A stretch of DNA of 2,285 bases from Escherichia phage ECO95 1-6-1: the sequence record OR845503.1, one strand, 5' to 3'. The notes beneath the pieces were generated by a model. That model saw only the letters and a program-made list of their open reading frames with translations. It was not told the origin of the DNA and made no database searches. Below are positions 70 to 1,845 of this stretch, piece by piece (the first letter of the stretch is position 1; every line of letters starts with the position of its first letter). Both the position numbers and the translations under genes were made by a program.

Positions 70-354
70 ATGGCTAAATACTCTGAAGAATTAAAAGGCG
101 TTGTCCGCGCACTTTATCTGCGCCGCTATACGCCAAAAGAAATTGCATCTGAATTAAATCTGCCGAATGCGCGGATCGTTTACTACTGGGCTGAAAAATA
201 CAGCTGGGCTGATTTGCTCAGTTTTGAAAGTACTGAAGAGGCTATCGAACGCCGCTACCAGCTACTGGCCAGCCGGGATAACAAAACCGATCTCGACCTG
301 AAAGAAATGGACATGCTCATTGCTCACGCCACAAAACTGCGTGCGCAAAGCAAT
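70..354 (+). other. Terminase N-terminal HTH-like domain (aa 1-95)
   Basis: Helix-turn-helix-like segment KEIASELNLPNARIVYYWAEKYSW, followed by a charged low-complexity linker. Domain boundary is approximate. Confidence 0.5.
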
Positions 355-1845
355 AAGCATAAAGAAAAGATGGCCAGCGGTCAGAACTCCGGGCAGGCAG
401 ATGCGCGGGACAGCAATTATGACGAACCCCGCCGCAAACGGAAATACAAGAAAAACGATATTTCCTCGCTGACGCAGGAGGATTTTGACGCCTGGGCTGA
501 TGAACACCTGTTTGAATACCAGAAACACCTGCGCCGGAATATTGGCCAGCTGGTCAGAAACATCCTCAAAAGCCGCCAGATAGGTGCGACCTGGTATTTT
601 GCATTTGAAGCCTTTGAAAACGCGGTCATGACAGGCGATCCGCAAATCTTCCTGTCTGCCTCCAAAGTCCAGGCGGAATACTTCCGGTCTTACATCGTAA
701 ATATTGCTGAACAGTATTTCGGGATCACGCTGACCGGCAACCCCATCCGCTTGTCCAACGGCGCGGAGCTGCGCTTCCTGTCCACCAACAAGAACACCGC
801 CCAGTCCTACAGCGGCCACCTGTACTGTGATGAATATTTCTGGGTTCCAAATTTCACAAAACTTAATGAAGTGGCCAGTGCAATGGCCACACATGACAAG
901 TGGCGTACCACCTACTTTTCAACACCGTCAGCTAAAACTCACCAGGCGTACCCGTTCTGGACAGGCGATGAATGGAAACAGGGCAGTAAAAAACGTACTG
1001 CCATTAAGTTTCCGACCTTTGATGAATTGCGCGACGGCGGGCGGGTTTGTCCGGATGGCCAGTGGCGCTACGTCATTACTATGGAGGATGCTATTGCGGG
1101 CGGCTTCAATCTGGCCAACATCGAGAAGCTGCGCAACCGCTACAACACAGCCACTTTCAACATGCTCTATATGTGCGTGTTCGTGGACAGTAAAGATTCC
1201 GTTTTCAGCTTTTCCGACCTGGAAGCCTGCGGCGTGGAAGTGGATACCTGGCAGGATCATAACCCGGATGCCGCCCGGCCATTTGGTGACAGGCCAGTAT
1301 GGGGCGGCTTTGATCCGGCTCGCAGCGGGGATTTGTCCTGTTTTGTGATTGTGGCGCCGCCGATGTTCGCCGTGGAGAAATTCCGCGTTCTGAAGGTGAT
1401 TTACTGGAAAGGAATGAACTTCCGGTACCAGGCAAAGCAGATCGAGCAGCTGTTTAAAAAATACAACTTCACCTATCTGGGCGTGGACGTTACCGGTATT
1501 GGCCAGGGCGTTTTTGACAACATTCAGCATTTTGCCATGCGTGTGGCCGTCGCCATTCGTTACGACCTGAACACAAAAAATCAGCTGGTACTGAAGGCGG
1601 CTGACGTGGTCGAAAGTCAGCGAATTGAATGGGACAAAAACCTGAAAGAGATCCCGGCCAGCTTTATGTCCGTACGCCGCACAACCACGCAAAGCGGTAA
1701 CGCCATGACCTTTGTTGCAGACCGCAGCCAGGACACAGGACACGCCGAAGCGTTCTGGGCGATAACCCACGCTCTGCATAACGAACCTCTGAACTATGAA
1801 AATAAACCTAAATCACGCTGGAATTTAAGGAACAAGGCAGCATGA
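70..1845 (+). CDS. terL: Phage terminase large (ATPase/nuclease) subunit, P2 gpP-like; complete
   Basis: Single uninterrupted 591-aa ORF, ATG at 70, TGA at 1843-1845. N-terminal HTH-like region (LYLRRYTPKEIASELNLPNARIVYYW) typical of gpP-type terminase N-termini. Deviant P-loop KSRQIGAT (aa 167-174) and Walker B HLYCDEYFW (aa 250-258) about 85 residues apart, as in terminase ATPases. C-terminal RNase-H-like nuclease signatures GGFDPARSGD (aa 412-421) and YLGVDVTGIGQGVFD (aa 469-483). Length matches the ~590-aa P2 gpP class. An in-frame TAA at 1-3 and no alternative start upstream make ATG 70 the first possible start. Confidence 0.85.
   Translation: MAKYSEELKGVVRALYLRRYTPKEIASELNLPNARIVYYWAEKYSWADLLSFESTEEAIERRYQLLASRDNKTDLDLKEMDMLIAHATKLRAQSNKHKEKMASGQNSGQADARDSNYDEPRRKRKYKKNDISSLTQEDFDAWADEHLFEYQKHLRRNIGQLVRNILKSRQIGATWYFAFEAFENAVMTGDPQIFLSASKVQAEYFRSYIVNIAEQYFGITLTGNPIRLSNGAELRFLSTNKNTAQSYSGHLYCDEYFWVPNFTKLNEVASAMATHDKWRTTYFSTPSAKTHQAYPFWTGDEWKQGSKKRTAIKFPTFDELRDGGRVCPDGQWRYVITMEDAIAGGFNLANIEKLRNRYNTATFNMLYMCVFVDSKDSVFSFSDLEACGVEVDTWQDHNPDAARPFGDRPVWGGFDPARSGDLSCFVIVAPPMFAVEKFRVLKVIYWKGMNFRYQAKQIEQLFKKYNFTYLGVDVTGIGQGVFDNIQHFAMRVAVAIRYDLNTKNQLVLKAADVVESQRIEWDKNLKEIPASFMSVRRTTTQSGNAMTFVADRSQDTGHAEAFWAITHALHNEPLNYENKPKSRWNLRNKAA
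568..591 (+). other. Deviant Walker A / P-loop of terminase ATPase (KSRQIGAT)
   Basis: Codons aaa agc cgc cag ata ggt gcg acc read directly at 568-591. Pattern K-S-x-Q-x-G-x-T with Lys at the motif start and Ala where canonical GK[ST] has Lys, comparable to the deviant lambda gpA-type P-loop (KSARVGYS) and T4 gp17 SRQLGKT. Confidence 0.55.
817..843 (+). other. Walker B motif of terminase ATPase (HLYCDEYFW, catalytic D254-E255)
   Basis: Hydrophobic strand followed by Asp-Glu at 829-834 (gat gaa), about 85 residues after the P-loop. A possible motif III/C-motif TYFSTPS follows at aa 281-287. Confidence 0.6.
1282..1842 (+). other. Terminase C-terminal RNase-H-like nuclease domain (approximately aa 405-591)
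   Basis: Acidic-residue motifs typical of terminase nuclease domains: GGFDPARSGD (D415 at 1312-1314), YLGVDVTGIGQGVFD (D473 at 1486-1488), FVADRSQDTGHAEAF (aa 548-562). Boundaries are approximate. Confidence 0.5.
1827..1837 (+). promoter_or_regulatory. Shine-Dalgarno region for the portal gene, embedded in the 3' end of the terminase gene
   Basis: AAGGAA at 1827-1832, about 10 nt upstream of ATG 1842, followed by a second AAGG at 1834-1837; purine-rich and complementary to the 16S anti-SD. Confidence 0.5.

What the first reader, a model, noticed from the sequence alone, without database searches (positions are those of the whole stretch)
340..459. Highly charged low-complexity linker between terminase N-terminal domain and ATPase domain
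Residues ~91-130 (RAQSNKHKEKMASGQNSGQADARDSNYDEPRRKRKYKKND) form a polar stretch with a strongly basic cluster RRKRKYKK (nt 430-453). It is probably a flexible tether; the basic patch could contribute to DNA or small-subunit contact.
Basis: inference. Interest (0 to 1): 0.2.

Follow-up and report, generated by a model that had tools for sequence, protein, structure and literature searches.

The report
Composite tether in P2-type terminase
The flagged 40 residues of this P2-like phage DNA-packaging enzyme are not one uniform floppy linker: they are the end of a helix, a truly variable disordered spacer, and a short positively charged motif conserved across the family. This is an ordinary feature of a well-known protein with one modest new detail.

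Summary
Nt 340-459 encode residues 91-130 of a 591-aa large terminase (gpP type; HTH + ATPase + nuclease), and RRKRKYKK lies at nt 430-453. The window is 100% identical to Salmonella phage S.Kent 1-2-1 and belongs to the ESSI-2 group of Peduoviridae.

The "flexible tether" reading is only partly right, because the segment has three parts:
- Residues 91-105 are the end of a long predicted helix (74-105) and are almost invariant among close relatives.
- Residues ~106-121 are a genuine disordered spacer: pLDDT <50, 5-51 residues long across the family, 33% identity among close homologues, and dN/dS <1.
- Residues 122-130 are a conserved basic motif ending in K-N-D. N129 is 90% conserved, the net charge is positive in all 68 representatives, and the distance to the ATPase YQ motif is fixed at 21 residues. 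Non-synonymous divergence is zero where synonymous sites are saturated.

A stand-alone ATPase-domain paralogue in phage phiO18P starts exactly at MKNDIS, which marks the module boundary.

The most likely role is a tether for a DNA-binding-type HTH, plus an electrostatic DNA (or partner) contact at the motor's N-terminal edge. That function is inferred, not shown. Interest is low.

The parts
70..1845 (+). Large terminase subunit (P2 gpP homologue), 591 aa
   Evidence: ORF. Pfam Terminase_5 13-63, Terminase_6N 164-385 and Terminase_6C 412-571. PHROG terminase large subunit families. AF2 mean pLDDT 88.7. Foldseek hits to T4 gp17, D6E, HK97 and Sf6 TerL.
82..270 (+). N-terminal helix-turn-helix module (residues ~5-67)
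289..384 (+). Long alpha-helix, residues 74-105. Its last third (91-105, nt 340-384) is the first part of the flagged segment.
   Evidence: DSSP on both AF2 models gives H74-105 and H74-106. Residues 91-97 are 98.6% identical among 120 homologues of 77-96% overall identity.
385..432 (+). Disordered, hypervariable spacer (residues ~106-121; sequence variability starts at ~98, nt 361)
   Evidence: pLDDT <50 for 106-123. Alignment occupancy 0.44-0.88, with no conserved residue. Length of the aligned 91-117 stretch is 5-51 aa, median 22.5. Identity is 33.5% in close homologues, with in-frame indels. pN is 0.09-0.54 against 0.03-0.16 for residues 133-591, and dN/dS is 0.12-0.5.
433..459 (+). Conserved basic 'KN' motif, R-K-R-K-Y-K-K-N-D (residues 122-130), the N-terminal edge of the ATPase module
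   Evidence: N129 is 90% conserved, K128 75% (79% K/R) and position 125 is 76% K/R. The 12-mer ending at N129 is net positive in 68 of 68 representatives, median +4. Alignment-free check: N at offset -21 from YQ in 64% of 94 sequences, and net charge >=+4 in 68% against 2.3% of background 12-mers. pN 0.00 with pS 0.97 against ESSI-2. The motif is retained in relatives with almost no helix or spacer, P0241 and P0247. The phiO18P ATPase-only paralogue begins MKNDIS.
460..537 (+). Acidic helix 136-146 and the Q-motif helix 149-156 (Y150-Q151 at nt 517-522), the start of the confidently folded ATPase domain
   Evidence: pLDDT >=96 from residue 131. Q151 is 97% conserved. Residues 131-150 have net charge -6. 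D/E occupy 32-55% of several positions from -20 to -5 relative to YQ. T4 gp17 aligns from its residue 137 to profile position 139.
565..591 (+). Walker A-type P-loop L-K-S-R-Q-I-G-A-T (residues 166-174)
   Evidence: K167, R169 and G172 are invariant in 73 sequences.
1842..2285 (+). Start of the portal gene (gpQ homologue), overlapping the terL stop as ATGA
   Evidence: PHROG 68 portal protein, E=3e-33. Sequence shown. Same gene order in ESSI-2, ev040 and ev239.

Best explanation
The flagged segment joins two modules of a P2-type large terminase and has three parts. (1) Residues 91-105 are the C-terminal end of a long helix (74-105) that belongs to the N-terminal helix-turn-helix module and acts as a stalk. 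(2) Residues ~106-121 are a truly disordered spacer whose length and sequence are free to drift. It works only as a flexible tether, letting the HTH module stay on its ligand (cos DNA or the small terminase gpM) while the ATPase/nuclease body moves. (3) Residues 122-130 (RKRKYKKND) are a conserved basic motif. Its last residues (K128-N129-D130) form the first ordered residues of the ATPase module, at a fixed 21 residues before the adenine-binding YQ motif. The preceding lysine/arginine run conserves charge rather than exact sequence, and I infer that it makes non-specific electrostatic contact with the DNA backbone at the N-terminal face of the motor. Shown here: the domain architecture, the three-part anatomy, the conservation and selection pattern, and the module boundary. 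Inferred: the ligand of the HTH and the DNA-contact role of the basic run. The stated confidence covers the whole statement. The anatomical part alone I would put at about 0.85 and the DNA-contact role at about 0.45.
For: Architecture. Helix 74-105 and the low-confidence stretch 106-123. Spacer variability (5-51 aa, 33.5% identity among close homologues, dN/dS below 1 but 2-4 times that of the flanks). Motif conservation, fixed spacing to YQ (21 +/- 1.75) and universal positive charge; alignment-free confirmation; purifying selection (pN 0, pS 0.97). The motif persists where the helix and spacer are nearly absent (P0241 STKKRKKRN-FISL, P0247 PAPKKRKMND-FTGI). The stand-alone ATPase-domain paralogue of phiO18P starts at MKNDIS and lacks the basic run, so K-N-D-I-S belongs to the ATPase fold and the basic run is not needed for folding. 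Conserved charge with variable register is the pattern typical of non-specific nucleic-acid-binding arms (established general knowledge, not tested here).
Against: There is no direct evidence for DNA contact. I had no model coordinates, no multimer or DNA-complex prediction, and no experiments. pLDDT for 121-130 is only ~66, so the local conformation is uncertain. About 7% of representatives (P0190, P0205, P0209 and relatives) lack K-N and have only a weak basic character, so the motif is not universal. The basic run is followed by a conserved acidic helix, which equally suits an intra- or inter-subunit protein contact. The searchable literature contained nothing on this region.
Confidence: 0.5

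Rival explanations
1. The basic run is a protein-docking element rather than a DNA contact. It would bind an acidic surface of the small terminase gpM, of the portal, or the conserved acidic helix (residues ~131-148) of the same or a neighbouring TerL subunit, helping holoenzyme or ring assembly or regulating the ATPase.
For: By my own knowledge (not tested here), in phage lambda the segment of gpA just N-terminal to the adenine-binding tyrosine is the gpNu1-binding site, which is the same relative position. A conserved acidic helix immediately follows the motif: residues 131-150 have net charge -6, and D/E are enriched at offsets -20 to -5 from YQ. The motif keeps a fixed register with the ATPase module and not with the HTH.
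Against: gpM homologues of this phage group show no strongly acidic tail or patch; the most acidic 15-mer has net charge -4 to -5. Only charge is conserved within the run, not specific residues, which is weaker than expected for a specific interface. No interaction was modelled.
Confidence: 0.3
2. This is the first reader's primary reading: the whole of 91-130 is a passive, flexible, low-complexity tether and the basic cluster has no function of its own.
For: Low hydrophobicity and a disordered-side charge-hydropathy value for the whole segment. Low pLDDT for 106-123. Great length variation.
Against: Residues 91-105 are helical and 98.6% conserved over 91-97 among close relatives. N129 is 90% and K128 75% conserved across relatives of 28-61% identity. 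The motif shows pN 0 against pS 0.97. The motif is kept when the spacer is lost.
Confidence: 0.08
3. The basic run is an AT-hook-like minor-groove arm that works together with the N-terminal HTH in sequence-specific cos recognition, as in the arms of Hin/resolvase or the linker of Tc1/mariner paired-like domains.
For: The N-terminal module resembles resolvase and Tc3/Sleeping Beauty HTH domains. A few relatives contain an R-G-R-P or G-R-P core in the motif, namely P0175, P0178 and P0179.
Against: The window has no G-R-P core. The motif keeps a fixed distance to the ATPase but a variable distance of 18-69 residues to the HTH module, the opposite of what an arm cooperating with the HTH should show. 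A long helix and a disordered spacer lie between the two.
Confidence: 0.07
4. The peculiarity lies at the DNA level: a recombination or mosaic joint between exchangeable N-terminal and motor modules, an embedded RNA, or an internal translation start.
For: The megablast match to ESSI2_ev239 starts at nt 439, exactly at the motif. An ATG codon (M101) lies inside the segment.
Against: The ev239 HTH is still 83% identical at protein level, so there is no module swap, only faster divergence of the helix and spacer. There is no Rfam match in the segment. M101 is leucine in most close homologues. A published PHI test found no recombination signal in Peduoviridae hallmark genes (PMC13100340).
Confidence: 0.03

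Closest known systems
Bacteriophage P2 gpP and other Peduoviridae large terminases (Pfam Terminase_5 + Terminase_6N + Terminase_6C)
   Same: Same three-domain architecture, same P-Q gene order, and in the ESSI-2-group relatives (the window itself does not reach that far) an O-N-M cluster on the opposite strand. The protein is 42.7% identical to Wphi gpP over 95% of its length. Wphi gpP has the same anatomy: a variable spacer, then RNKGGRRKPKKN, then 21 residues to YQ.
   Different: It belongs to the Seongnamvirus/Quadragintavirus (ESSI-2) branch, not Peduovirus. The spacer is 6 residues longer than in Wphi gpP and unrelated in sequence.
Phage lambda gpA N-terminal gpNu1-binding segment (own knowledge, not tested here)
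   Same: It is a cos-phage TerL in which a short region directly upstream of the adenine-binding aromatic residue mediates contact with the DNA-recognition component. Its P-loop also has the lysine at the N-terminal end (KS..G..), as in KSRQIGAT here.
   Different: Lambda gpA has no N-terminal HTH domain, no long helix and no disordered spacer. No sequence similarity was detected here, and lambda gpA did not appear in any search.
T4 gp17 and other structurally solved TerLs (D6E, HK97, Sf6, P74-26)
   Same: The ATPase and RNase-H-like nuclease folds match, with Foldseek E down to 2.7e-15. The YQ and Walker A region aligns with gp17 residues 137-303.
   Different: No match to a solved TerL extends over residues 1-130. 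Homology by sequence profile starts just before the YQ motif. The only solved-structure matches to residues 1-135 are HTH domains of other protein classes.
HTH-linker-catalytic-domain recombinases (serine resolvases, Tc1/mariner and IS21 transposases)
   Same: They have a small three-helix HTH of similar sequence and shape, joined by a flexible, basic linker to a catalytic body. This is a useful analogy for how a tethered HTH can hold an enzyme at a specific DNA site.
   Different: The catalytic domains and order of parts differ. In those enzymes the basic arm sits next to the HTH, whereas here it is locked in register with the ATPase. The analogy concerns mechanism only and does not imply membership.

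Membership tests
P2 gpP-type large terminase (Peduoviridae TerL) | N-terminal Terminase_5 (gpP-like HTH) domain | tested here: met
   PF06056 E=1.4e-10, residues 13-63, above the curated cut-off.
P2 gpP-type large terminase (Peduoviridae TerL) | T4-type terminase ATPase domain with Q motif, P-loop and Walker B, plus an RNase-H-like nuclease domain | tested here: met
   PF03237 E=2.4e-52 and PF17289 E=5.6e-29. Q151, K167, R169, G172, D254 and E255 are invariant or nearly invariant. Fold matches to solved TerLs.
P2 gpP-type large terminase (Peduoviridae TerL) | Gene context: terL followed by portal on the same strand, divergent from the scaffold-capsid-small terminase cluster | tested here: met
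   The portal gene starts at nt 1842. The full arrangement is seen in ESSI-2, ev239 and ev040, which are 74-88% identical at DNA level.
P2 gpP-type large terminase (Peduoviridae TerL) | Terminase activity (cos cleavage, ATP-driven packaging) | not testable with these tools
   This needs biochemistry or genetics.
Intrinsically disordered interdomain linker | Low hydrophobicity and high charge, with low structure-prediction confidence | tested here: met
   Charge-hydropathy is on the disordered side for 91-130. However, pLDDT <50 covers only 106-123, and 91-105 is helical.
Intrinsically disordered interdomain linker | Length and sequence vary freely among homologues, with no conserved motif | tested here: inconclusive
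   This is met for ~98-121: 5-51 aa across the family and 33.5% identity among close homologues. It is not met for 91-97 (98.6% identity) or for 122-130 (N129 90%, pN 0).
Low-complexity region (SEG sense) | 12-residue window entropy at or below 2.2 bits | tested here: not met
   The minimum in the segment is 2.36 bits at 117-128. The only windows at or below 2.2 bits in the protein are at 371-372.
AT-hook | R-G-R-P (G-R-P) core flanked by basic residues | tested here: not met
   The sequence is DEPRRKRKYKKND with no G-R-P. A G-R-P core is present in only a few relatives.

The most novel reading that the evidence does not exclude
In P2-like phages the large terminase, not only the small one, carries the DNA-handling apparatus for initiation: a tethered transposase/resolvase-type HTH that reads cos, plus a conserved basic K-N arm locked to the ATPase that loads or clamps DNA or gates ATPase activity. 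The basic K-N motif would then be an undescribed functional motif of this terminase family. The ATPase-only, Walker-A-degenerate paralogues that begin exactly at K-N-D-I-S in phiO18P-like phages would be regulators or decoys built from the same module.
Probability: 0.2. Interest if true: 0.45.

Novelty: new member of a known kind. Interest (0 to 1): 0.2.

Why it matters
For annotation, it moves the real N-terminal boundary of the gpP ATPase module from Pfam residue 164 to about residue 128. It also shows that the interdomain region holds one short motif under strong selection, so deletion or construct design for structural work on P2-type terminases should cut inside 106-121 and keep 122-130. 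For mechanism, no P2-type terminase appeared among the solved structures searched here. A conserved basic arm next to the ATPase and a tethered HTH are cheap, specific targets for mutagenesis to ask which subunit recognises cos. None of this would surprise a terminase specialist.

Tried and rejected
- **Mosaic joint at nt 439.** The ev239 megablast start suggested a recombination joint. I rejected this because the protein N-terminal domain is still 83% identical.
- **Acidic tail on gpM.** I looked for an acidic C-terminal tail or patch in the small terminase gpM as a partner for the basic run. There was nothing striking (net -4 to -5), so the check was uninformative. Pfam finds only PF05944 in gpM and no HTH, which is suggestive but not conclusive.
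- **Solved relatives.** A single-sequence PDB search found none. The profile search found only nuclease-domain, gp17 and HTH matches.
- **RNA element.** The Rfam scan at permissive threshold gave only a chance snoRNA hit outside the segment.
- **Internal start at M101.** The residue is not conserved and is Leu in most close homologues.
- **Positive selection on the spacer.** dN/dS was below 1 in every measurable pair. Only four DNA sequences and ~24 codons were available, so this is crude.
- **Literature.** Searches for gpP/gpM, Terminase_5 and terminase linkers found nothing on this region.
- **Model contacts.** I could not inspect model coordinates, so contacts of K125, K128 and N129 in the AF2 model are unknown.
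Full report
**What is there.** The window holds one long ORF, 70..1845 (+), of 591 aa, followed by the start of a second gene at 1842.
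- The ORF is a large terminase subunit of the P2 gpP type. Pfam finds Terminase_5 (13-63), Terminase_6N (164-385) and Terminase_6C (412-571), and PHROGs finds only terminase-large-subunit families.
- The downstream gene is a portal (PHROG 68). Its ATG overlaps the terL stop as ATGA at 1842-1845.
- The DNA is 100% identical to Salmonella phage S.Kent 1-2-1. It is 81-88% identical to Cronobacter phage ESSI-2 and the Escherichia ESSI2_ev phages (Peduoviridae).
- In those phages, terL-portal lie opposite scaffold, capsid and small terminase, as in P2.
- tblastn finds 489 phage records, with P2-type gpP (Wphi, L-413C) at about 43% identity.

**Check of the observation.** Residues 91-130 are exactly nt 340-459 with the sequence quoted, and RRKRKYKK is nt 430-453.
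- The segment has 12 K/R and 6 D/E. It is 82.5% polar or charged and 12.5% hydrophobic, against 38% for the whole protein.
- Seven K/R in eight residues arose in 27 of 20,000 shuffles. The 29-residue run without large hydrophobic residues (102-130) arose in 176 of 20,000.
- The charge-hydropathy measure puts the segment on the disordered side and both flanks on the folded side.
- By a SEG-type entropy criterion the segment is not formally low-complexity: the minimum is 2.36 bits against a 2.2 trigger.

**Anatomy from structure prediction.** An AlphaFold2 model built on a 73-sequence alignment spanning 28-96% identity has mean pLDDT 88.7.
- It predicts a continuous helix at 74-105.
- The only long low-confidence stretch (pLDDT <50) is 106-123.
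- Confidence is at least 96 from residue 131 onward.
- A separate model of residues 1-135 gives the same helix (74-106), with pLDDT at least 93 up to residue 100 and coil after it.
- pTM is only 0.63 despite the high pLDDT, as expected if the two modules have no fixed mutual orientation.
- Only about 16-18 of the 40 flagged residues therefore look like a disordered tether.

**What the tether joins.**
- A profile of residues 1-135 matches solved helix-turn-helix DNA-binding domains over residues ~5-47: 2lvs (E = 4e-9), IS5376 transposase, the Sleeping Beauty PAI subdomain and gamma-delta resolvase.
- Downstream, the ATPase module really begins well before the Pfam boundary at 164. Y150-Q151 (Q 97% conserved) aligns with the T4 gp17 Y142-Q143 region.
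- The P-loop is LKSRQIGAT, with invariant K167, R169 and G172.

**Family comparison.** The exhaustive representative search gave 1,161 relatives, of which I used the best 150. In a MAFFT alignment of 68 full-length representatives at 28-61% identity:
- The stretch aligned to 91-117 ranges from 5 to 51 residues (median 22.5), with occupancy 0.44-0.88 and no conserved residue.
- The 12 residues ending at N129 are net positive in every sequence (+1 to +8, median +4).
- N129 is conserved in 90%, K128 in 75% (79% K/R), and position 125 is K/R in 76%. These values are comparable to the catalytic motifs.
- The distance from N129 to the YQ motif is 21 ± 1.75 residues, while the distance back to the HTH module varies from 18 to 69.

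Because aligners can stack lysine-rich stretches, I repeated the test without an alignment. I anchored each of 94 sequences on its own Walker A and YQ motifs:
- N occupies offset -21 in 64%, and K/R occupies -22 in 69%.
- K/R enrichment runs from -32 to -22.
- Net charge is at least +4 in 68% of sequences, against 2.3% of background 12-mers from the same proteins.
- Directly after the motif comes an acid-rich helix (D/E 32-55% at several positions). In the window, residues 131-150 have net charge -6.

**Close relatives and selection.** Among 120 homologues of 77-96% identity, regional identity to the window is as follows:

| Region | Identity |
|---|---|
| 91-97 | 0.986 |
| 98-117 | 0.335, with in-frame indels |
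| 118-129 | 0.72 |
| ATPase domain | 0.91 |

The block K-R-K/Q-Y-K/R-K-N-D-I-S is essentially constant. Nei-Gojobori counts on the four available coding sequences show:
- For the motif (122-132), pN is 0.00 while pS is 0.97 against ESSI-2.
- For the spacer, pN is 0.34 against 0.02-0.07 for the flanks in the same pair.
- dN/dS is 0.12-0.5 wherever it could be measured.

The spacer is therefore under relaxed constraint, not positive selection. These numbers are crude because few sequences and few codons were available.

**Two natural experiments.**
- First, relatives with almost no helix or spacer keep the motif directly after the HTH: P0241 has ...STKKRKKRN-FISL and P0247 has ...PAPKKRKMND-FTGI. 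The spacer is dispensable and the motif is retained.
- Second, phiO18P and MLG42 carry an extra ORF between terL and portal that is a stand-alone copy of the ATPase domain only, matching window residues 128-380 at 48% and 25% identity.
- The phiO18P copy starts MKNDISHLT, exactly at K128-N129-D-I-S, and has no basic run.
- This places K-N-D-I-S in the ATPase fold. It also shows that the basic run upstream is not needed for that fold, as expected for a functional appendage.

**Mechanism.** The best-supported description is a composite connector:
- a helical stalk belonging to the HTH module (to ~105);
- a passive, disordered, length-tolerant tether (~106-121);
- a conserved basic arm fused to the first ordered residues of the ATPase (122-130).

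I infer that the tether lets the HTH stay on cos DNA or on gpM while the motor and nuclease body acts. I also infer that the basic run contacts the DNA backbone non-specifically, because its charge is conserved while its register is loose. The main rival is an electrostatic protein contact with gpM, with the portal, or with the acidic helix 131-148 of the same or an adjacent subunit. By my own knowledge (not tested here), lambda gpA binds gpNu1 through the segment at the same relative position. gpM shows no matching acidic tail, but this does not exclude the rival. An AT-hook reading fails: there is no G-R-P core, and the motif keeps register with the ATPase rather than the HTH.

**DNA-level explanations were rejected.**
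- The megablast boundary at nt 439 with ev239 is only faster divergence, because the HTH is still 83% identical at protein level.
- There is no Rfam match in the segment.
- M101 is not conserved.

**Comparison with what is known, and novelty.**
- The protein is a clear member of the P2 gpP family, with all sequence-testable features met.
- Flexible interdomain linkers and HTH-tethered enzymes are commonplace.
- I found no description of the basic K-N motif or of the three-part anatomy in the searchable literature. No P2-type terminase appeared among the solved structures searched here.
- This is a modest family-level detail in a known protein: a new member of a known kind, with low interest (0.2).
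- The most novel reading not excluded is that P2-type TerL carries its own cos-reading HTH and a DNA-loading or regulatory basic arm. I give that about 0.2 probability.

Noticed in passing
L009 2006-2779 (Aeromonas phage phiO18P); L010 1913-2638 (Yersinia phage vB_YpM_MLG42); probably also Salmonella phage BIS20 (hit H44): There is an extra ORF between terL and portal that is a stand-alone paralogue of the TerL ATPase domain only (window residues 128-380; 48% and 25% identity). The phiO18P copy starts MKNDIS, exactly at the K-N motif. Walker A is degenerate (LKAHQIGMS; TKMRQAGAD), and Walker B is DEYFW in one copy and SEYAW in the other. It may be an inactive pseudo-ATPase acting as a regulator or a decoy for terminase-sensing defences..
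   Followed up: partly
window 1842-1845: The terL stop codon and the portal start codon overlap as ATGA, preceded by AAGGAACAAGG. This suggests translational coupling of terminase and portal.
   Followed up: no
window 565-591 (residues 166-174): The P-loop is L-K-S-R-Q-I-G-A-T, with invariant K167, R169 and G172 and alanine where classical Walker A has the GK[ST] lysine. In other words, it is a deviant Walker A with the lysine at its N-terminal end.
   Followed up: partly
window 460-519 (residues 131-150): A conserved acid-rich helix (net -6 in the window) directly follows the basic run. This gives a family-wide basic/acidic charge dipole just upstream of the YQ motif.
   Followed up: partly
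window 1-69; L001 5931-7850: The ESSI-2 TerL is annotated as 639 aa, and clusters P0002-P0014 are 623-628 aa, with N-terminal extensions. In this window an in-frame TAA at nt 1-3 excludes such an extension, and all homologues share the MAKYS start. The longer forms are therefore probably start-codon miscalls.
   Followed up: partly
window 262-894 (-) and 928-1779 (-): Long antisense ORFs of 210 and 283 aa lie inside terL. The ESSI-2 record annotates similar antisense 'hypothetical proteins' (for example L001 7023-7787). These are probably spurious calls in a GC-balanced coding region.
   Followed up: no
L008 (OR850877.1, source record of the window): The source record is flagged UNVERIFIED_ORG. 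It is a 15.4-kb unannotated contig from wastewater, while near-identical proteins (96%) occur in over a thousand E. coli and Enterobacter genome entries. The sequence is therefore most likely a widespread ESSI-2-type prophage.
   Followed up: no
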